Source: an uncultured Bdellovibrionales bacterium (GTDB lineage Bacteria > Patescibacteriota > Minisyncoccia > Moranbacterales > UBA2206). Taken from it: a DNA stretch of 64,000 bases. Location: the NCBI GenBank assembly GCA_964387895.1, contig CAYLWX010000002.1, forward strand, positions 15,779 to 79,778, read 5' to 3'. The notes below the pieces were generated by a model. That model saw nothing but the letters and a program-made list of their open reading frames with translations, made no database searches and was not told the origin of the DNA. This document shows, piece after piece, positions 6,225-55,927 of the stretch (positions are counted from its first letter, which is position 1; every line of letters starts with the position of its first letter). The position numbers and the translations under genes were made by a program.

Positions 6225-6335
6225 TTGTCTGAACCACTGATTCGCACATGATTACCCTGATTCCACTGATTATTTTATTTATACCAATTAATCAGTGCAA
6301 TCATGAAAATCAGTGATAATCAGTGGTTCAGACAA
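6225..6335. repeat. family-D palindromic element (TTGTCTGAACCACTGATT ... AATCAGTGGTTCAGACAA), empty form
   Basis: ~110-bp near-perfect dyad with internal CACTGATT/AATCAGTG sub-repeats. Lies between the thrS stop and the miaB start. Copies at 14178-14487 (carrying a nested element), 55819-55927 and a degenerate one at 7598-8004. Confidence 0.75.
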
Positions 6336-7612: not shown

Positions 7613-8004
7613 TTTGCTTGATTTAATGATTTCATGATTACACCTCCAAGCAGGTTCAAGCGTCTCACTTGAACCTTGGATTTCTGACAGGCTATAGTCC
7701 GCAAGAAACTAAAAGTTCAGGCGTCTCGCCTGAACTTGTAAGAAGTAAAAAATGATTTTATATTTTTAGGGCTTACGCATTTGACTGTCTTTTGTCATTC
7801 CCGTGTAGACGGGAATCCAGGAGAATACGACATATTTATCCTATAATAATCCAGTTATAGAGCAAAAAGAAACTAAATCAGCTTTGTTATGTATATCGTT
7901 TTCCTCGATGAATCCTGGATCCCCGCCTACGCGGGGATGACAAATGCGTAAGTCCTAATTTTGATTTGTCATTTTGATTTTTGATTTTTACATTTTTCAT
8001 TTTT
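7598..8004. repeat. composite repeat region: truncated family-D arms enclosing two small GCGTCTC-loop hairpins and a reverse-oriented family-E MITE-like element
   Basis: Left D arm ttgtctgaaccatgatttgcttgattt overlaps the last miaB codons. Hairpins at 7648-7678 and 7715-7735. E copy at 7771-7953. A partial D right arm (gtcattttgatttttgattttt) runs into the miaA start. Confidence 0.6.
7771..7953 (-). mobile_element. family-E MITE-like element (GC-rich hairpin terminal inverted repeats), copy 1, reverse orientation
   Basis: TIRs gtcattcccgtgtagacgggaatccagga / tcctggatccccgcctacgcggggatgac. Outer cttacgcatttg / caaatgcgtaag. The internal ~95 bp is ~80% identical (as reverse complement) to copies at 14231-14413 and 21145-21313. 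Confidence 0.5.
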
Positions 8005-12207: not shown

Positions 12208-12702
12208 TTACGCTTTTTTCAGTTTTAGCACCGCTCTGAATTGTTTCACTTCTTTTTCCAAGTTTCTCACTCTTTCCATGAGAGAGATGCGATTTCCTTC
12301 ATCCATGTTTCCTTCTTCCAGATGCTCCAGTCGTTTTTTTATATCTTTTATTTCCTCGTCAAGATTAGAAAAATATTCAAAAACTGTTTTGAAGTTGCTT
12401 TTGGTTTCATCTCTAAATTCAAAAAGTTTCTTAAAATTAATCGCAGTTTCATCTTTGAATTCAAAGAGTTTCTTAAAATTAATCGCAGTTTCATCTTTGA
12501 ATTCTCGCAATTCTTCCTGCAGTATGGTTTGCCCTTCCGCCACGGCGTCAAATTTTCCTTCCAAATGTTCAATAAGCGCGCCTACTTCGCTCGCTCGAAA
12601 CATCCGTTCTATTTTTTTATCCATTTTTTTAAACTTTTTTTTCTTCATAGTAGTGAATAAATTCGCCCTAAAAGTATAGCATAAATGGAACGGCCTTATC
12701 AC
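12208..12702 (-). CDS. hypothetical coiled-coil protein containing a perfect 14-aa tandem repeat
   Basis: FKDETAINFKKLFE x2 then a diverged third copy. Start overlaps gatB stop by 4 bp (ATGA); alternative start at 12648 (MKKKKF). Confidence 0.4.
   Translation of the reverse strand: MIRPFHLCYTFRANLFTTMKKKKFKKMDKKIERMFRASEVGALIEHLEGKFDAVAEGQTILQEELREFKDETAINFKKLFEFKDETAINFKKLFEFRDETKSNFKTVFEYFSNLDEEIKDIKKRLEHLEEGNMDEGNRISLMERVRNLEKEVKQFRAVLKLKKA
12418..12501. repeat. 2 x 42-bp perfect tandem repeat inside a CDS
   Basis: ttcaaa(a/g)agtttcttaaaattaatcgcagtttcatctttgaa twice, in-frame within ORF 12208-12702. Confidence 0.8.
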
Positions 12703-14177: not shown

Positions 14178-14487
14178 TTGTCTGAACCACTGATTATCAC
14201 GTGATTACACATGATTTCACTGATTCATGACTTACGCATTTGTCATCCCCGCGAAGGCGGGGATCCAGGATTCAATGGGCGAGGTGAAATATAAAAATAT
14301 ACTAATTTCGATTCTTTTTACTCTATATCTGGATTATTATTAGATAGCCGTATGGTATACTCCTGGATTCCCGCCTACGCGGGAATGACATAAAAGAAAG
14401 CCAAACGCGTAAGTCATGTGATTTTTATTTTTCACTAAGCCAATCTGTGTAATCAGGAAAATCAGTGCGAATCAGTGGTTCAGACAA
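14178..14487. repeat. family-D palindromic element with a nested family-E element inserted at its centre
   Basis: Left arm 14178-14230 and right arm 14414-14487 together match the 110-bp element at 6225-6335. Between divergent gatB and ndk. Confidence 0.7.
14231..14413 (+). mobile_element. family-E MITE-like element, copy 2
   Basis: cttacgcatttgtcatccccgcgaaggcggggatccagga ... tcctggattcccgcctacgcgggaatgacataaaagaaagccaaacgcgtaag. TIRs are themselves hairpins (ccccgc-gaag-gcgggg). Confidence 0.5.
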
Positions 14488-22516: not shown

Positions 22517-22655
22517 TAAATCCTAAGCACGATCCCGAGTACTCGGGACTAAATCCTAAACAATATCTAAATTAAAATTACCCAAATTAAAAATGTTTTA
22601 GATTTTGGTAATTTGAATTTGTTTAGGATTTAGATATTAAAATTTAGAATTTAAA
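22517..22655. repeat. family-B dyad element (AAATCCT 7-mer inverted arrays around AAAATGTTTT) with embedded TCCCGAGTACTCGGGA palindrome
   Basis: Between the nusG stop and the rplK start. Shares a cgtgcttaggattt segment abutting the start codon with the copy at 51365-51497. Confidence 0.7.
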
Positions 22656-22661
22656 TATCGA

Positions 22662-23207
22662 TTATATTTTATTAATTTGCAAAAAGTCCAGTTCTACCGG
22701 AGTTTCTCTTCCGAATATTGACACCAGCACTTTTATTTTTCCTTTTCCTTCATCGACCGTATCCACTTTACCGTCAAAATCTTTAAACGGTCCGTCAACA
22801 ATTTTTACCGCATCCCCCTGCTTCACGTCGATCTTGTATTTAGGTTCGGTCATTCCCATTCTTTTCTTGAGCATTTCTATTTCCGCGGGATCAACTGGAG
22901 TAGGAGTGGTTCCCAGCCCTATGAATCCGGTCACATTGGGAGTGTTTCTCACTACATACCACGAGGCATCAGTCACAATCATTTCCACCAATACATACCC
23001 TGGATAAATCTTCTCTTCAATCACCGTTCTTTTTCCGCCCTTAATTTTAATCTTTTTTTCCATGGGAACCATTACGTCAAAGATCAAGTCCTGCATATCC
23101 ATGGATTCAATTCTTTGCCGTAAATTCCGGGCGACATTGTCTTCATACCCGCTGTAGGTATGGATTACATACCACGCCCGCCCATGATGTTGTGTTTGCT
23201 TCGCCAT
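22662..23207 (-). CDS. nusG: transcription termination/antitermination factor NusG
   Basis: WYVIHTYSGYEDNV NGN domain and C-terminal KOW. Start set at MAKQTQ (23207). The ORF-track N-terminus reads through the family-C repeat. Confidence 0.85.
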   Translation of the reverse strand: MAKQTQHHGRAWYVIHTYSGYEDNVARNLRQRIESMDMQDLIFDVMVPMEKKIKIKGGKRTVIEEKIYPGYVLVEMIVTDASWYVVRNTPNVTGFIGLGTTPTPVDPAEIEMLKKRMGMTEPKYKIDVKQGDAVKIVDGPFKDFDGKVDTVDEGKGKIKVLVSIFGRETPVELDFLQINKI

Positions 23208-23211
23208 AGAT

Positions 23212-23297
23212 TTCATGAAACATGGAACACATAACACGGAACAAAAAATCCAAGATGATTTGTTTCATGCTCTATGTTCCATGTTCTATGTTAGAGT
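23212..23297. repeat. family-C dyad element (CATGGAA/ACATGGA 7-mer inverted arrays)
   Basis: catgaaacatggaacacataacacggaac ... gtttcatgctctatgttccatgttctatg. Between secE and nusG. Confidence 0.65.
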
Positions 23298-23473
23298 ACA
23301 AATGTCTTTAATAAATACGCGAACAAATAATCCAGCCCTCCCAAAAATATTGCCAGCACTACGCTGATACCGATTACTATCAAAGTATACCGTACTACTT
23401 CCTGCTTTGAAGGCCAGTTTACTTTTAACAGCTCCGTTTTGGCTTCTTTGAAAAATATGACCAGCTTACTCAT
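23291..23473 (-). CDS. secE: preprotein translocase subunit SecE
   Basis: 60 aa with a single C-terminal TM helix and KVNWPSKQEV motif. Canonical position upstream of nusG. Confidence 0.8.
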   Translation of the reverse strand: MSKLVIFFKEAKTELLKVNWPSKQEVVRYTLIVIGISVVLAIFLGGLDYLFAYLLKTFVL

Positions 23474-23595
23474 CCTGAGTTTTTTAAAAAATATTCACCC
23501 GCTCCAATTTTACCCCAAAAAAGGACTTTTAAAAAGCCCTTCGGGCTTTTATTGATTCTAAACTAAATATACACCAGGATTAATTTCTTGTCAAA

Positions 23596-23672
23596 TGGTG
23601 GGCGTATCTGGATTCGAACCAGAGACCTCGTCATTATCAGTGACGCGCTCTAACCAACTGAGCTATACGCCC
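23596..23672 (-). tRNA. tRNA-Ile (anticodon GAT), CCA encoded
   Basis: Reverse complement GGGCGTATAGCTCAGTTGGTTAGAGCGCGTCACTGATAATGACGAGGTCTCTGGTTCGAATCCAGATACGCCCACCA folds as a cloverleaf with anticodon loop CTGATAA. Confidence 0.9.
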
Positions 23673-23675
23673 TTG

Positions 23676-23748
23676 TGGACCGTGCCGGACTCGAACCGGC
23701 CACCTCCTCGGTGCAAACGAGGCACTCTACCAGATGAGCTAACGGCCC
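23676..23748 (-). tRNA. tRNA-Ala (anticodon TGC)
   Basis: Reverse complement GGGCCGTTAGCTCATCTGGTAGAGTGCCTCGTTTGCACCGAGGAGGTGGCCGGTTCGAGTCCGGCACGGTCCA. Acceptor G3:U70 Ala identity pair present. Anticodon loop TTTGCAC. Confidence 0.9.
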
Positions 23749-23835
23749 TGTAGACTGACCGTTATTCTAACAAAAAATAATAATACTGTCCATACCAACC
23801 AGATTATTGTAAAATAAATAGATTTCAAAAATCCT

Positions 23836-23944
23836 AATATCCAAATCCCAATGCCAAATAAAATCCCAAATCCCAATTTCAAAACTTTTGGACATTCTGA
23901 TTTTGGGTTTTATTGGATATTGGGATTTGGGAATTGTAAATTTA
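23836..23944. repeat. family-A dyad element, diverged copy (CCCAAAT/GGGATTT arms, CAAAACTTTTGG centre)
   Basis: Upstream (5') of the minus-strand tRNA-Ala/Ile-secE-nusG block, downstream of murD. Confidence 0.65.
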
Positions 23945-23992
23945 GATCATAGTAAATATCTTCCAGCCACATACATTCACTTTTCTTTATTA

Positions 23993-34011: not shown

Positions 34012-34287
34012 TTATTCAGCTTCTATACTTTCTATTCTCCATACATCTCCCCCTGCTCTCTTTATTTCAAATCTCGCCCCTTCCAACACGGTATTCTTCG
34101 CCAGACTTTCTAATCCAAACTGTAAATTTTCCATGTTTATCTCTTCCGCGTGATCAGGCATCCCGTCATGCGAGAACGCGATGCTTCCTATCTCTAAACG
34201 CACCGCGGAAATTTTTTTTAATTTCTTCTCTTGCGCCACTTCCATAACTTTTCCAATTATTTCTTTGGCCAGAAAAAAATCATGCAT
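34012..34287 (-). CDS. HypA-like nickel-insertion protein, truncated (N-terminal MHD/MHE Ni-binding start but no C-terminal CxxC...CxxC zinc finger)
   Basis: Start set at MHDFFLAKEII (HypA begins MHE). 91 aa. No Cys pairs in the C-terminal part. Confidence 0.45.
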   Translation of the reverse strand: MHDFFLAKEIIGKVMEVAQEKKLKKISAVRLEIGSIAFSHDGMPDHAEEINMENLQFGLESLAKNTVLEGARFEIKRAGGDVWRIESIEAE

Positions 34288-34293
34288 ACTGTT

Positions 34294-34373
34294 TATGGAA
34301 CATAAAACATGGAACATGGAAAAAAATTTAAAATAATTTGTTCCATGTTATGTGTTCCATGTTTCATGTTTTT
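34294..34373. repeat. family-C dyad element (ACATGGA 7-mer inverted arrays around an A/T centre)
   Basis: ggaacataaaacatggaacatggaaaaaaatttaaaataatttgttccatgttatgtgttccatgtttcatg. Between the hydrogenase large-subunit stop and the HypA-like start. Confidence 0.65.
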
Positions 34374-35632
34374 TAGTGTACCGCGCAACTTATACACGGA
34401 TCATATGCTCTGATAAACGCTCTTAATTTCTTTTCTCTTTCTTTCTCAGGTAAGTCCACCACTTCAGGGATATAGGCTTTTATGTCATCCTCAAGATTGG
34501 ATAAAAATTGAGCGGTAGGAGTAATAATATTCACATTCTTTACGTATCCCTTCGCGTCTACCTCTGTATGATAATAGAGCGTGCCTCTGGGCGCTTCCAC
34601 CGCTGCCACACCAACCCCTTCCCGCGGGATATACTCTTTAGTTACCACTTGATTCAAATCGGCATTTAACAAAAGCCGCAACATTCTTCCTGATTCCTCC
34701 ACCGCGTGAATTACTTCTACCATTTGCGCCAGCACATTATGGAAAGGATTATAGTCCGGAAACTTCCACTGCAAAGAAGACAAATATTTTTCCGCCGCGG
34801 GAGAAAGCGCCATATGGTTTATATTCACTCTCGCGATTGCTCCTGTCATATAACTCTTTCCGTTGTGTTCCACTCTTTTTACTACCTCATGTTGTTTTTG
34901 CAGTTCGGAAAAATTGGATTCGAATTTGTCCACCGGTATATGCAACCCGTCGGAAGACACAATGTCCCCGTCATATACCGCGTACTCGTTTTTTTTCTGG
35001 AGACATACATATTCCGTATTCCGGGAAAAATACGGCAAGGTGATCTTCTTGAAAAATTCTCCCAGCTCCAACGCGTGCCGCAGTGTTTCTTCGCTATGCT
35101 CTATAATCTTTTTCACTGCCTCCGCGTCCGGCACTTTTTTGAATCCTCCTACCTCATTAGTGAGGGGATGCACGACTCGTCCTCCGATCACCCGCACGAT
35201 ATCCATGCCATATTCCCTGATCTTGATCGCTTTTTTGGCTTCTTCAGGATGTTCTTTGACCAATTGCAAATCGTTGCTGATATCCAGAAAATCAGCCAGC
35301 GATAAAAAGAAAAGATGCAGCCCGTGAGAGTGAATAATTTGTCCCAGCTCCAGAACCGCGCGAAGTTGCTCCGTCTCGCGGGTTACCATTACCCCCATTG
35401 CGTTTTCAAGGGATTTTATGGAAGTTAGATTGTGCACTACAGGACAAATCCCGCAAATCCGTTGCGCGATAACCGGCACATCTTTGTAGTGGCGTCCGAC
35501 TAAAATTCCTTCAATCAGGCGAATTCCCTCCTGCACTTCAATTTTTGCTTTGCGCACGTCACCTTTCAACACGCTGGCCATAAACCCCGCGTGCCCTTCC
35601 ATTTTTGCTACATGTTGTATGAGAATATCCAT
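34373..35632 (-). CDS. [NiFe]-hydrogenase large (catalytic) subunit, group-3-like, ending exactly at the DPCxxCxxH motif (no C-terminal extension)
   Basis: N-terminal RICGICPVVH (RxCGxCxxxH) and C-terminal DPCISCAVH-stop. Start set at MDILIQHVAKMEGHAGF (the ORF track extends to 35698, overlapping the small subunit). Confidence 0.8.
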   Translation of the reverse strand: MDILIQHVAKMEGHAGFMASVLKGDVRKAKIEVQEGIRLIEGILVGRHYKDVPVIAQRICGICPVVHNLTSIKSLENAMGVMVTRETEQLRAVLELGQIIHSHGLHLFFLSLADFLDISNDLQLVKEHPEEAKKAIKIREYGMDIVRVIGGRVVHPLTNEVGGFKKVPDAEAVKKIIEHSEETLRHALELGEFFKKITLPYFSRNTEYVCLQKKNEYAVYDGDIVSSDGLHIPVDKFESNFSELQKQHEVVKRVEHNGKSYMTGAIARVNINHMALSPAAEKYLSSLQWKFPDYNPFHNVLAQMVEVIHAVEESGRMLRLLLNADLNQVVTKEYIPREGVGVAAVEAPRGTLYYHTEVDAKGYVKNVNIITPTAQFLSNLEDDIKAYIPEVVDLPEKEREKKLRAFIRAYDPCISCAVH

Positions 35633-35636
35633 AATA

Positions 35637-36452
35637 TTATTCCTGGGTTCTTTCCTCAATAGCATCCCGTAATCCATAAATCTCCGTCGTATTTTCAAAC
35701 TCTTCGTCCGTCATCATATTTTTAAGCGTCGCGCGCATAGCTTTTACATTGCCTTTTGGACGAAGACCGCGGCAGCCCTGGCACATCATTTTGGAACTTG
35801 GACAGACTGCCTGGCAACCTCCCTGGATCATGGGACCAAAACAAGGTTTTTTATCCAGAAGAAGACAGCGATTGCCCAACTTTCTACATTCCACACACAC
35901 TGGCTGATCAGGAATTTCAGGAATCTTTCCTTCGATAATATCCGTCATATAGCGCAAAAATTCTTCACCGTCTATAGGACATCCCGGAAGCGTAAAGTCC
36001 ACTTTCACAAAATTATCCACTTCTTTAATTTCCGGATTAGAAACTCCCTGAATATATTTATAGACATGCTTGATCGTATTCTGCCCTTCCTGGTAATTTT
36101 TGATTTCCGGTATTCCTCCCATCGCCGCGCAATTTCCCAGTACTACCAGCAATTTACTTCGCTGTCTAAGTTGGAGAAGAGTTTTTATATTCTCTTCCGT
36201 CACCGGATTGCCTTCTATAATCCCCACATCGATATTTTCACCTTTATCTTCATCATCTTCCAGTAAACGAAAATCCACTAGTTCCACCTGCTGCAAAAAT
36301 TGTAAAAACCGCTCTCCTAAATCCAGAATGGCAAACTGGCATCCCTCACAGGAAGTAAGACTCACAATCGCAATTTTCGGTTTTGATCGATCTTTGGTTT
36401 TTATTTGTACCGCCAGATTCGAAATCTCCCGCGGATGAATAGATCCGGGCAT
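35637..36452 (-). CDS. [NiFe]-hydrogenase small/delta subunit with C-terminal poly-Cys Fe-S domain
   Basis: IAIVSLTSCEGCQ, GNCAAMGG, LPGCPIDG (complex I 20-kDa/NiFe small-subunit proximal-cluster motifs). C-terminal CVECRK...CFGPMIQGGCQAVCPSSKMMCQGCRG. Start set at 36452 (MPGSIHP). The track's N-terminus runs through the family-A repeat. Confidence 0.75.
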   Translation of the reverse strand: MPGSIHPREISNLAVQIKTKDRSKPKIAIVSLTSCEGCQFAILDLGERFLQFLQQVELVDFRLLEDDEDKGENIDVGIIEGNPVTEENIKTLLQLRQRSKLLVVLGNCAAMGGIPEIKNYQEGQNTIKHVYKYIQGVSNPEIKEVDNFVKVDFTLPGCPIDGEEFLRYMTDIIEGKIPEIPDQPVCVECRKLGNRCLLLDKKPCFGPMIQGGCQAVCPSSKMMCQGCRGLRPKGNVKAMRATLKNMMTDEEFENTTEIYGLRDAIEERTQE

Positions 36453-36495
36453 AATAGAGTTATCGATTATTGAAGCGAGGGTAGACACAATACTT

Positions 36496-36622
36496 AAATT
36501 TCCAATTCCCAAATCCCAATTTCCAATAAATGTCCAATGACCAAATTCCAAAAATTTTGCACATTGGGATTTGGGGTCCCGAGTACCCGGAATTGGAAAT
36601 TAGATATTGGGAATTGGAAATT
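36496..36622. repeat. family-A dyad element, copy with embedded GTCCCGAGTACCCGG palindrome
   Basis: aaatttccaattcccaaatcccaatttccaataaatgtccaatga ... ttgcacattgggatttggggtcccgagtacccggaattggaaattagatattgggaattggaaatt. Between hydG and the hydrogenase small subunit. Confidence 0.7.
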
Positions 36623-51340: not shown

Positions 51341-51364
51341 ACTTTTGTAGTTTCTATTTTAGTA

Positions 51365-51497
51365 AAATCCTAAGCACGAAATCCTAAATCCTAAACAAAT
51401 TCAAATCACCAAAATACAGAAACTCAAAACGTTTTGAATTTAAACTATTTGTATTTTGAATTTGTTTAGTATTTAGATATTCGGATTTAGGATTTTA
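51365..51497. repeat. family-B dyad element (AAATCCT inverted arrays, AAAACGTTTT centre)
   Basis: aaatcctaagcacgaaatcctaaatcctaaacaaattcaaat ... atttgaatttgtttagtatttagatattcggatttaggattt. Immediately 5' of tpiA. Confidence 0.7.
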
Positions 51498-55818: not shown

Positions 55819-55927
55819 TGTGTCAGAACCACTGATTCGCACGTGATTATCCTGATTTCACTGATTTTATTTTTCATCAGACTAATCTGTGTAATCAGGA
55901 AAATCAGTGATAATCAGTGGTTCTGAT
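55819..55927. repeat. family-D palindromic element, empty form
   Basis: gtcagaaccactgattcgcacgtgattatcctgatttcactgatt ... aatcaggaaaatcagtgataatcagtggttctgat. Fills the secY-adk intergenic space. Confidence 0.7.

What the first reader, a model, noticed from the sequence alone, without database searches (positions are those of the whole stretch)
34294..34373. Family-C dyad element (ACATGGA 7-mers): a third family sharing the same architecture (inverted 7-bp tandem arrays around an A/T-tract centre)
Seen: copies at 23212-23297 (secE/nusG junction) and 34294-34373 (hydrogenase large subunit/HypA-like junction). Families A, B and C differ in unit sequence but share unit length (7 bp), inverted-array layout, A4-7/T4-7 centres and placement immediately 5' of minus-strand genes. 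Inference: this points to a common generating or recognition mechanism. Options are 7-bp-register slippage plus selection for a hairpin, or recognition by a protein reading a 7-bp repeat.
Basis: seen in the sequence. Interest (0 to 1): 0.55.

Follow-up and report, generated by a model that had tools for sequence, protein, structure and literature searches.

The report
Heptad-repeat palindromes between operon genes
Two roughly 80-bp hairpin-forming repeats made of 7-bp units lie between neighbouring genes of a candidate-phyla-radiation bacterium, and they belong to a repeat family found across that bacterial group, so this is a new example of a known but poorly understood kind of bacterial repeat.

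Summary
Window 23208-23290 and 34288-34372 are two copies of one imperfect palindrome. Each arm has 4-5 degenerate heptads (CAYRNAA) around an A-run/T-run centre. Each copy exactly fills the spacer between a stop codon and the next start codon (secE|nusG and NiFe-hydrogenase large subunit|hypA).

The host is a Moranbacteria-like Patescibacterium. In most relatives the secE|nusG spacer is 0-25 nt, so this copy is a derived insertion. Other relatives carry dyads with different 7-, 8- or 9-bp units at the same junctions.

The same heptad family gave at least 118 hits in public genomes, mostly Patescibacteria of many classes. About 40% of arrays form dyads of one fixed polarity. Single arrays also occur in frame inside housekeeping genes. 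Orthologous copies are often more conserved than the flanking genes.

No transposase, target duplication, Rfam family, promoter or terminator signature was found.

The best reading is a dispersed REP/MITE-like palindromic repeat of the known heptameric-SSR kind (Xanthomonas, cyanobacteria, Beggiatoa). It is co-transcribed as an intercistronic hairpin. Its mode of spread and its function are not resolved.

Seven bp is preferred but not exclusive. A single protein that reads all the unit types is unlikely.

The parts
23208..23290 (.). Family-C dyad, copy 1. It fills the whole secE|nusG spacer (83 nt).
   Evidence: (I4). It folds as a hairpin at -33.7 kcal/mol on the gene (-) strand, z -6.9. The same junction is 0-25 nt in 48 of 73 relatives.
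23214..23248 (+). Copy 1 left arm, five heptads: CATGAAA CATGGAA CACATAA CACGGAA CAAAAAA
23263..23290 (+). Copy 1 right arm, four heptads: TTTCATG CTCTATG TTCCATG TTCTATG
34288..34372 (.). Family-C dyad, copy 2. It fills the whole spacer between the hydrogenase large subunit and hypA (85 nt).
   Evidence: (I9, I14, I21, I22). Fold z -5.2 to -6.1. It has the opposite orientation to copy 1.
34294..34321 (+). Copy 2 left arm: TATGGAA CATAAAA CATGGAA CATGGAA
34341..34368 (+). Copy 2 right arm: TTCCATG TTATGTG TTCCATG TTTCATG
23291..23473 (-). secE. Its stop codon abuts copy 1.
   Evidence: Pfam SecE, 4.7e-19
22662..23207 (-). nusG, with the true start MAKQ. The ATG lies 6 nt after the hairpin.
   Evidence: Pfam NusG/KOW. 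Homologues of 181 aa.
34373..35698 (-). NiFe-hydrogenase large subunit. Its stop codon lies 4 nt before the first heptad of copy 2. Its start codon is uncertain.
   Evidence: Pfam NiFeSe_Hases, 1.2e-33
34012..34287 (-). hypA-like gene (91 aa, start MHDFF)
   Evidence: Pfam HypA, 3.1e-09, aligned from residue 1
23566..23594 (-). Promoter-like site upstream of secE (TTGACA-17-TATATT). This places copy 1 inside the secE-nusG transcription unit (an inference).
   Evidence: 11 of 12 matches

Best explanation
The two sites are copies of one non-coding imperfect palindrome of about 80 bp. Each arm has 4-5 degenerate heptads (CAYRNAA), and the centre is an A-run followed by a T-run. The element belongs to a repeat family dispersed through Patescibacteria genomes.

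Shown:
- The two copies are homologous as whole elements.
- The secE|nusG copy is a derived insertion into a normally tight, translationally coupled junction.
- The family recurs at unrelated junctions, and in frame inside genes, in many candidate-phyla-radiation (CPR) classes.
- Dyads of the family have a fixed polarity.
- Orthologous copies are often under stronger constraint than the flanking genes.

Inferred:
- The family spreads as DNA by copying into A-rich tracts. The mechanism is unknown. It could be templated or gene-conversion-like copying, or an unidentified trans-acting enzyme. Slippage in 7-bp steps then changes the unit number.
- Each inserted copy is co-transcribed with its operon. 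It folds into a hairpin that begins at or within 2-4 nt of the upstream stop codon (0 nt in copy 1) and ends 6-11 nt before the next start codon.
- This keeps stop and start close together in the folded mRNA, so the insertion is tolerated. It probably also modulates mRNA stability or the relative translation of the two cistrons, as REP hairpins do.

The element is not a protein-coding gene, a known RNA family, a promoter or an intrinsic terminator.
For: Reality and homology of the copies:
-.

The secE|nusG copy is an insertion:
- The gap is 1 nt in L001 and L123/L124, 8 nt in L122 and 10 nt in L002/L003.
- It is 25 nt or less in 48 of 73 metagenomic relatives.

The same junctions hold other dyads:
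- At secE|nusG: L130 (8-mer units), L131 and L165 (7-mer), L170 (9-mer).
- At the LSU 3' junction: family-C-like in L131, other families in L133, L045 and L001.

Dispersal:
- At least 118 genome stretches match a 21-nt family pattern, against roughly 13-22 expected by chance (my estimate). Most are in Patescibacteria of many classes, and several genomes have 2-5 hits.
- The loop TTTAAAATAATT of copy 2 recurs in a non-orthologous Moranbacteria site (L013/L121).
- The tpiA|fba junction carries a family-C dyad in L022/L045/L111 but is a 25-nt spacer with no such element in the window.

Polarity:
- An inverted partner lies 3' of the CATGGAA array in 50 cases and 5' in 8 or fewer.

In-frame arrays:
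- They occur in TrmD (a 7-aa insertion relative to solved TrmD structures), UvrC, GltX, an NrdG-like protein and glycosyltransferases.

Constraint:
- Element against flank identity is 97% against 76% (p = 1e-8), 99% against 83%, and 100% against 77%. A control intergenic region is 59% identical.

Hairpin geometry:
- 16 of 19 inserts of 50 nt or more at secE|nusG fold with z of -2.7 or lower, mostly with tails of 10 nt or less.

Other classes excluded:
- Rfam finds nothing near a gathering score.
- No promoter or terminator consensus lies inside the elements.
- None of the ~72 window ORFs scanned (11 have no Pfam match at all) matches a transposase, recombinase or reverse-transcriptase family.
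Against: - No target-site duplication and no mobilising enzyme were found, so mobility is inferred only from distribution.
- There are no transcript data.
- The gene-sense strand does not fold better than the antisense strand (14 against 17 elements).
- The arms of one dyad are no more complementary to each other than to arms of other dyads (19.4 against 19.1 of 28 positions; permutation p about 0.06). This argues against strong selection on pairing itself.
- The family-C dyads at the LSU 3' junction in the window and in L131 are not alignable beyond the unit level, so constraint is not universal.
- A perfect (CATGGAA)x9 array in L198 and a unit-number difference between L008 and L030 show that local slippage also contributes.
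- The stop/start "bridge" role is an inference.
Confidence: 0.6

Rival explanations
1. Purely local origin. Each dyad arose in place by replication slippage in 7-bp register, and selection kept the hairpin-forming products. No copying between loci is involved.
For: - Period 7 is strongly preferred. This fits the published idea that about 7 nt is the slippage-prone length (cited in PMC4679880 and PMC4692102).
- L198 has a perfect (CATGGAA)x9 array.
- L008 and L030 differ by a unit-sized indel.
- 93 distinct heptads occur among 154 arrays.
Against: - A 32-nt arm differs at one base between two unlinked loci in the window.
- A loop sequence is shared with a non-orthologous site in another genome.
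- The same degenerate unit repertoire occurs in at least 118 stretches in many classes, clustered in particular genomes.
- The empty TrmD site is A-rich and has no CATGGAA precursor.
- Family C has a fixed polarity.
- Orthologous copies are nearly invariant rather than fast-evolving.
Confidence: 0.15
2. The arrays are binding sites for a protein that reads nucleic acid in 7-nt steps, and the dyad is a regulatory operator or RNA-protein switch. An OB-fold cold-shock-type protein on RNA or ssDNA would be one candidate.
For: - Primary sequence, loops included, is conserved above the level of flanking genes.
- The arms do not covary, so sequence rather than pairing appears to be constrained.
- CspB binds one protein per heptamer according to PMC4679880.
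- The elements abut start codons in a genome that rarely uses Shine-Dalgarno sequences.
Against: - Dozens of unrelated unit sequences, and units of 8-10 bp, share the same layout.
- The arrays are tolerated in frame inside housekeeping genes.
- Different unit families replace each other at one junction.
- No candidate protein has been identified.
Confidence: 0.12
3. A classical MITE. The arms are terminal inverted repeats recognised by a transposase encoded elsewhere in the genome, and the single arrays are solo ends.
For: - The arms are polar and TIR-like.
- Presence/absence varies at given junctions.
- L168 has a 23S_rRNA_IVP gene between inverted arrays at the same junction.
- The genome does host a bona fide MITE with a TSD-like TGATT, nested in another dyad.
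Against: - Neither window copy nor L020/L022 shows a consistent target-site duplication.
- Arm length and unit order vary between copies.
- No transposase is present in 64 kb.
- Only 2 hits occur in viral contigs.
Confidence: 0.2
4. An intrinsic terminator or attenuator that separates the upstream gene from the downstream gene.
For: - The hairpin lies directly after a stop codon.
- Copy 2 is followed by TTTTTT on the + strand.
- A dyad is present 3' of the hydrogenase large-subunit gene in all five genomes examined.
Against: - The T-run is on the strand antisense to the genes, and there is no U-tract on the gene strand in either copy.
- The stems are AT-rich and the terminator scan reports nothing there.
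- secE-nusG is tightly coupled in relatives.
Confidence: 0.05

Closest known systems
Heptameric simple-sequence-repeat arrays of Xanthomonas (GGGAATC) and Nostoc (GGGGAYT) (Rehm et al. 2015, PMC4692102)
   Same: - Tandem 7-bp units, mostly about four per array.
- 89-93% of arrays are intergenic, usually between co-oriented genes and close to the upstream gene.
- 70-75 pairs per genome lie in convergent (inverted) orientation and can form stem-loops.
- Heptamers are over-represented among bacterial SSRs.
   Different: - The units are G-rich and quadruplex-forming; here they are A-rich CAYRNAA.
- Those arrays differ in length and sequence even between the two closely related species, and long arrays are not at the same genes. 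Here orthologous copies are nearly invariant.
- That work describes no in-frame copies in conserved proteins and no spread across classes.
TAACTGA heptamer direct repeats of marine Beggiatoaceae and cyanobacteria (MacGregor 2015, PMC4679880)
   Same: - Short arrays of 2-6 heptads.
- They are intergenic and often end within 1 nt of a start codon.
- They are scattered over distant lineages, which suggests horizontal spread with no evident mechanism.
- A few lie inside ORFs.
   Different: - They are almost always direct arrays, with one inverted repeat among 170 sets.
- There is a single unit sequence.
Cyanobacterial STRR heptanucleotide repeats (Calothrix PCC 7601; cited in PMC4692102)
   Same: - Several families of tandem heptamers in intergenic DNA of one genome.
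- From my own memory, not checked here: STRRs extend a hairpin (P12) of the RNase P RNA gene, which would also be an inverted-array arrangement inside a functional gene.
   Different: - Different units and a different phylum.
- Their function is equally unknown.
REP / REPIN elements (Bertels & Rainey 2011, PMC3116915)
   Same: - An extragenic inverted doublet with a short spacer, forming a hairpin in ssDNA or mRNA.
- Dispersed families that differ between genomes.
- Doublets are better conserved than singlets.
- Singlets are also present.
   Different: - Each REP is itself a short palindrome, and each family sits next to a RAYT transposase.
- Here the arms are tandem arrays, not palindromes, and no RAYT was seen.
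Rickettsia palindromic elements (own knowledge: Ogata et al. 2000, not read here)
   Same: Small repeats that occur both between genes and in frame inside conserved protein genes without destroying them.
   Different: RPEs insert as whole palindromes of 100-150 bp. Here only single arms of 21-28 nt are found in ORFs.

Membership tests
Heptameric SSR / STRR-type arrays | Head-to-tail repeats of a 7-nt unit, at least 2-3 copies, perfect or heterogeneous | tested here: met
   TRF reports period 7, with 3.9-4.6 copies per arm. The pattern CAYRDAR x3 matches only these loci.
Heptameric SSR / STRR-type arrays | Strong intergenic preference | tested here: met
   Both window copies fill intercistronic spacers. 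In other genomes most dyads lie outside long open frames (32 of 46), although 31 of 73 single arrays lie in long open frames.
Heptameric SSR / STRR-type arrays | Arrays frequently paired in convergent (inverted) orientation, as in Xanthomonas | tested here: met
   Both window copies are dyads. About 40% of 123 arrays elsewhere have a partner 3' of the CATGGAA array.
REPIN | Each half (REP) is itself a short imperfect palindrome | tested here: not met
   Each arm is a tandem array of CAYRNAA units with no internal hairpin. The predicted folds pair arm with arm.
REPIN | A cognate RAYT (Y1 transposase) gene in the genome, flanked by the repeats | tested here: inconclusive
   None of the ~72 window ORFs has a transposase-family Pfam match. 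The window is only 64 kb of the genome.
MITE | Terminal inverted repeats | tested here: met
   The arms are inverted and have a fixed polarity.
MITE | Target-site duplication flanking the element | tested here: not met
   The flanks of both window copies and of L020/L022 show no consistent duplication. By contrast, the nested GC-hairpin element at 14226-14432 has TGATT on both sides.
MITE | A related autonomous element with the same ends | not tested
   The only lead is L168, where a 23S_rRNA_IVP ORF sits between inverted arrays of another unit type.
Intrinsic terminator | GC-rich stem followed by a U-tract on the transcribed strand | tested here: not met
   The scans report no terminator-like site in either element. 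The gene strand reads ...CAUGAAAUCUAUG and ...CCAUAAACAGUAUG after the stem.
Any Rfam RNA family | Score at or above the family's gathering threshold | tested here: not met
   The whole-window gathering scan finds only 4 tRNAs. The permissive scans give only generic miRNA-precursor hairpin models far below threshold.
CRISPR array | Repeats separated by unique spacers of similar length | tested here: not met
   The units are contiguous, 7 bp long and arranged as an inverted pair.

The most novel reading that the evidence does not exclude
Patescibacteria carry a phylum-wide class of sequence-constrained short-unit palindromes, of which family C (CAYRNAA) is the commonest. Under this reading they are functional intercistronic modules rather than junk. 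One possible role is a hairpin bridge or protein-binding platform that sets translational coupling and cistron stoichiometry in genomes that largely lack Shine-Dalgarno sites. They would propagate by a transposase-independent, templated copying process into A-rich tracts, and the same process would write 7-aa peptides into loops of essential proteins.
Probability: 0.2. Interest if true: 0.7.

Novelty: new member of a known kind. Interest (0 to 1): 0.45.

Why it matters
Candidate-phyla-radiation (CPR) bacteria have tiny, gene-dense genomes, so anything that repeatedly occupies their scarce intergenic space needs an explanation.

- About 13 of the 32 longer spacers in this window are strongly hairpin-forming, most of them repeat elements of this or another kind, and several lie inside essential operons (secE-nusG, secY-adk, nusG-rplK).
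- If the elements are only tolerated selfish DNA, they are a useful marker of genome dynamics and a source of annotation errors. ORF callers extend nusG, hypA and the hydrogenase small subunit into the repeats.
- If the sequence constraint seen between species reflects function, the elements would be an unrecognised layer of operon regulation in organisms that cannot be cultured.
- They would also offer a tractable system for the old open question of why heptamer repeats are favoured in bacteria.

Tried and rejected
- **Source genome lookup.** Exact-protein look-ups for the window's GAPDH and for P0001 found nothing on record, so the source contig beyond the window could not be read.
- **RNA family.** Rfam gathering and permissive scans found nothing.
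- **Promoter or terminator.** The consensus scans found nothing inside the elements.
- **Selection on mRNA folding.** I compared fold energies and G.U against A.C counts on the sense and antisense strands of 31 co-directional dyads and found no sense bias. This analysis is weakened because I picked the G-rich arm by design and used crude gene maps.
- **Arm covariation.** A permutation test was not significant.
- **General polarity rule.** I tested whether the A-rich arm always comes first. Non-C families show 27 against 24, so there is no such rule.
- **Phage vector.** Only 2 hits occur in IMG/VR.
- **Transposase in the window.** None was found.
- **Literature.** No paper in the searchable library contains the repeat sequence or describes CPR heptad repeats. 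The Elhai 2008 paper on small dispersed repeats is not in the library.
- **P0003 contig.** This is one of the closest relatives (NusG 94% identical), and its secE|nusG gap of 167 nt may hold the shared structured insert of L135 type, but its DNA was not retrievable.

Full report
**1. Observation**

Copy 1 on the + strand:
- left arm: CATGAAA CATGGAA CACATAA CACGGAA CAAAAAA (23214-23248)
- centre: TCCAAGATGA TTTG
- right arm: TTTCATG CTCTATG TTCCATG TTCTATG (23263-23290)

Copy 2 on the + strand:
- left arm: TATGGAA CATAAAA CATGGAA CATGGAA (34294-34321)
- centre: AAAAATTTAAAATAATTTG
- right arm: TTCCATG TTATGTG TTCCATG TTTCATG (34341-34368)

Tandem Repeats Finder reports period-7 arrays, and also period 14 because CATGGAA alternates with degenerate units. 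The repeat finder reports the inverted arms (I4, I9, I14, I21, I22).

The structure is far beyond chance:
- A three-heptad degenerate pattern matches 9 times, only at these two loci, against 0.01 expected.
- A 21-nt family pattern matches 5 times against 0.06 expected.
- Both copies fold as long hairpins on either strand, at -25.6 to -33.7 kcal/mol and z -4.8 to -6.9.

The two copies are homologous as whole elements but lie in opposite orientation relative to the genes. A 32-nt stretch (arm plus the start of the centre) differs at one base.

**2. Exact placement**

Pfam confirms SecE, NusG, the NiFe-hydrogenase large subunit and a 91-aa HypA-like protein. The mechanical ORFs that start at 23237 (GTG) and 34317 (ATG) run into the repeats. 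Homologous NusG proteins are 181 aa and start MAKQ, and the HypA profile aligns from residue 1 of MHDFF.

Each element therefore fills the whole spacer:
- Copy 1 (23208-23290) runs from the secE stop to the nusG ATG.
- Copy 2 (34288-34372) runs from the large-subunit stop to the hypA ATG.

On the gene (-) strand, the copy 1 hairpin starts at the first base after the stop codon and ends 6 nt before the ATG. The copy 2 hairpin leaves 2 and 11 unpaired nt.

**3. Organism and surroundings**

The closest NusG homologues are Moranbacteria, Parcubacteria and Patescibacteria. GC content is 42%.

The window holds housekeeping genes, including dnaE, thrS, the ribosomal-protein operons, secY, murD, ddl, tpiA and fba. 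None of the ~72 ORFs scanned matches a transposase, recombinase or reverse-transcriptase family.

About 85% of the genes are on the minus strand, so "5' of minus-strand genes" carries little information.

Only 7 of 63 starts have a Shine-Dalgarno-like motif.

A strong promoter-like site (TTGACA-17-TATATT) lies upstream of secE. No promoter- or terminator-like site lies inside either element. Rfam finds only four tRNAs at gathering score. With permissive settings it returns only generic hairpin (miRNA-precursor) models far below threshold.

**4. Other dyads in the window**

The same layout occurs with other units:
- AATTTCC/AATTCCC at 315-396 and 36497-36622
- AAATCCC/AAATCCT at 23819-23946 and 51363-51497
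- a related array at 22549-22633, in the nusG|rplK junction

There is also a family with 9-10-bp TGATT units at 6225-6335, 55823-55926 (the secY|adk junction) and 14183-14486. In the last of these a different, roughly 205-bp GC-hairpin element is nested in the loop, with TGATT on both sides.

A strict scan for inverted tandem arrays found 7 loci at period 7, 1 at period 6, and none at the other periods from 4 to 14.

Thirteen of the 32 spacers of 60 nt or more fold with z of -4 or lower.

**5. The same junctions in relatives**

The secE|nusG gap varies as follows:
- 1 nt in L001 and L123/L124, 8 nt in L122, 10 nt in L002/L003.
- 25 nt or less in 48 of 73 NusG-selected metagenomic loci.

The 83-nt family-C element is therefore a derived insertion.

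The other 25 junctions carry inserts of 26-486 nt. Several are dyads with other units:
- L131: CTTGAAA 7-mers
- L165: AACTTAT 7-mers
- L130: TACAAAAA 8-mers
- L170: AAGTTCATA 9-mers

One insert (L168) has a 23S_rRNA_IVP gene between inverted arrays. Five relatives share a different structured insert of 161-223 nt.

Sixteen of the 19 inserts of 50 nt or more fold with z of -2.7 or lower, mostly with unpaired tails of 10 nt or less.

The junction 3' of the hydrogenase large subunit carries a dyad in all five genomes seen:
- family-C-like in the window and in L131, though the two are not alignable beyond the unit level
- other families in L133, L045 and L001

Conversely, tpiA|fba carries a family-C dyad in L022/L045/L111 but is a 25-nt spacer with no such element in the window.

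**6. Family C elsewhere**

My estimate of the chance expectation is about 13-22.

Most hits are from Patescibacteria of many named classes: Moran-, Staskawicz-, Kuenen-, Magasanik-, Yonath-, Nealson-, Falkow-, Buchanan- and Roizmanbacteria, and Saccharibacteria-labelled MAGs. Several genomes contribute 2-5 hits. Some taxon labels of the third-party (TPA) assemblies are unreliable. L051, labelled "Gammaproteobacteria", is orthologous to a Roizmanbacteria locus. Viral contigs gave 2 hits.

Further properties of the family:
- Arrays are 4-5 units long.
- About 40% have an inverted partner 3' of the CATGGAA array, and only about 3-6% have one 5' of it.
- In 614 kb selected only by NusG, 9 of the 63 period-7 arrays are family-C-like. 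These include a perfect (CATGGAA)x9 in L198.
- That unbiased sample gives 63 arrays at period 7, 14 at period 8, 9 at period 14, 8 at period 9, 7 at period 6, and 3 or fewer at the rest. Shuffled sequence gives about 0.
- The repeat-selected loci gave 154 non-C arrays at period 7, with 93 distinct heptads.

**7. Arrays inside genes**

Thirty-one of 73 single arrays lie in long open frames. I inspected 16 of them, chosen because the array lies on the frame's strand. In all 16 the array is in frame, mostly in a recognisable conserved protein, and encodes HGTHNMEQ, MEHKTWN or TWNIEHGT. The proteins include TrmD, UvrC, GltX, an NrdG/PflA-like activase, an Elp3-like enzyme and glycosyltransferases.

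Among the single arrays in long open frames, 23 are sense and 8 antisense (my count).

The TrmD case:
- The TrmD array is a 7-aa insertion relative to solved TrmD structures.
- That loop is hypervariable among Staskawiczbacteria.
- Two species share the array with different unit variants.
- An "empty" relative has the A-rich sequence AAT AAC AAA AAA ACA AAA at that position.

**8. Constraint and structure tests**

Identity of orthologous copies against about 1.2 kb of flank:

| Pair | Element | Flanks | Significance |
|---|---|---|---|
| L022/L111 | 97% | 76% | p = 1e-8 |
| L020/L113 | 99% | 83% | p = 6e-7 |
| L051/L089 | 100% | 77% | p = 9e-6 |
| L008/L030 | 81% | 66% | p = 0.006 |
| L013/L121 | 92% | 83% | p = 0.03 |
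| L034/L096 | 92% | 90% | not significant |

Another spacer in L022/L111 is only 59% identical.

Two results argue against selection on pairing:
- The arms of one dyad are no more complementary to each other than to arms of other dyads.
- The gene-sense strand does not fold better than the antisense strand.

The constraint therefore appears to act on sequence rather than on pairing. This is unexplained.

**9. Interpretation**

The evidence favours a dispersed repeat family. It shows copying between loci, presence/absence at junctions, fixed polarity, genome-specific clustering and in-frame copies. Slippage in 7-bp steps acts on top of this.

No target duplication or mobilising enzyme was found, so the mode of spread is unknown. 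The A-rich empty site and the A-rich flanks are compatible with templated or microhomology-driven copying, but this is an inference.

Once inserted in an operon, the element should be co-transcribed and fold so that the stop and start codons stay close together. That would explain why tight coupling junctions accept only palindromes. Whether the element also tunes mRNA stability or translation was not tested.

The rival explanations (pure slippage, a protein reading heptads, a classical MITE, a terminator) are weighed in the rival section.

**10. Relation to the literature**

- Heptamers are the over-represented SSR class in many bacteria (cited in PMC4679880 and PMC4692102).
- Xanthomonas GGGAATC arrays are mostly four units long, 89-93% intergenic, and often in convergent inverted pairs.
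- TAACTGA arrays in Beggiatoaceae and cyanobacteria sit just upstream of start codons and are scattered across phyla.
- REPINs are inverted REP doublets linked to RAYT transposases.

Family C fits the first kind. It fails the defining tests for REPIN (the arms are not palindromes) and for MITE (no target duplication).

No paper in the searchable library mentions this repeat or CPR heptad repeats.

**11. Verdict**

- The element is a new member of a known kind of repeat.
- Two features deserve follow-up: the sequence constraint above the level of flanking genes, and the in-frame copies in essential proteins.

Noticed in passing
window 14183-14486 (nested element about 14226-14432); second copy at window 7775-7952: A TGATT-unit dyad is split by a nested element of about 205 bp. 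That element has terminal inverted repeats CATGACTTACGCATTTGTCAT... and GC-rich hairpins (GTCATCCCCGCGAAGGCGGGGATCC), with TGATT on both sides, which resembles a target duplication. The same GC-hairpin family fills the LSU|hypA and L11|L1 gaps in relative L001.
   Followed up: partly
window 6225-6335, 55823-55926 (secY|adk junction), 14183-14486: A dyad family with 9-10-bp units (CACTGATTNN) has the same inverted-array layout. This shows that the unit length is not always 7.
   Followed up: partly
window 23532-23550 (minus strand), downstream of the promoter-like site at 23566-23594: A conserved hairpin, AAAAGCCCGAAGGGCTTTTT plus an A/T run, lies in the secE leader. It is also present upstream of secE in L001, L002, L122 and L123. 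It is a candidate leader terminator or attenuator of the secE-nusG operon.
   Followed up: no
L128, L132, L135, L136, L150 (the 161-223 nt before nusG; for example L135 5068-5229): Five relatives share a structured insert in secE|nusG. Its last hairpin (CATnnTTGT...ACAAnnATG) includes the nusG start codon. It has no Rfam match. The untrievable P0003 contig, with a 167-nt gap, may carry the same insert.
   Followed up: partly
L168 5515-6000: A 486-nt insert at secE|nusG consists of a 23S_rRNA_IVP (four-helix-bundle, Avd-like) gene flanked by inverted short-unit arrays. It could be an example of such arrays acting as the ends of a gene-carrying element.
   Followed up: partly
L105 (TrmD), L207, L077, L086, L043, L025, L004, L031, L080: Family-C heptad arrays of 3-4 units lie in frame in loops of housekeeping proteins of other CPR bacteria. 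The TrmD loop is hypervariable in length among Staskawiczbacteria and also carries other repeat-like peptides.
   Followed up: partly
L198 5589-5733: A perfect (CATGGAA)x9 array with a degenerate inverted partner lies upstream of secE. This is evidence of recent unit expansion.
   Followed up: no
L131 374-754 and the corresponding region of L133: Relatives have an extra desulfoferrodoxin gene between the hydrogenase large subunit and hypA, with dyads on its flanks. The window lacks this gene.
   Followed up: partly
window, all gene starts: Only 7 of 63 genes have a Shine-Dalgarno-like motif, and the leaders are A/T-rich. ORF callers extend nusG, hypA, the hydrogenase small subunit (35637-36551) and dnaE (367-) into the repeats.
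   Followed up: partly
window 12404-12504: A 42-bp tandem repeat (2.4 copies, 94% matches) lies inside an ORF with no Pfam match (12208-12702).
   Followed up: no
window 23596-23748: A tRNA-Ile(GAT)/tRNA-Ala(TGC) pair, which usually sits in rRNA operon spacers, stands alone upstream of secE with no rRNA gene in the window.
   Followed up: no
L051 against L089 (and other TPA_asm loci): Taxon labels of some third-party MAG records look unreliable. A locus labelled "Gammaproteobacteria" is orthologous (77% flank identity) to a Roizmanbacteria locus.
   Followed up: no
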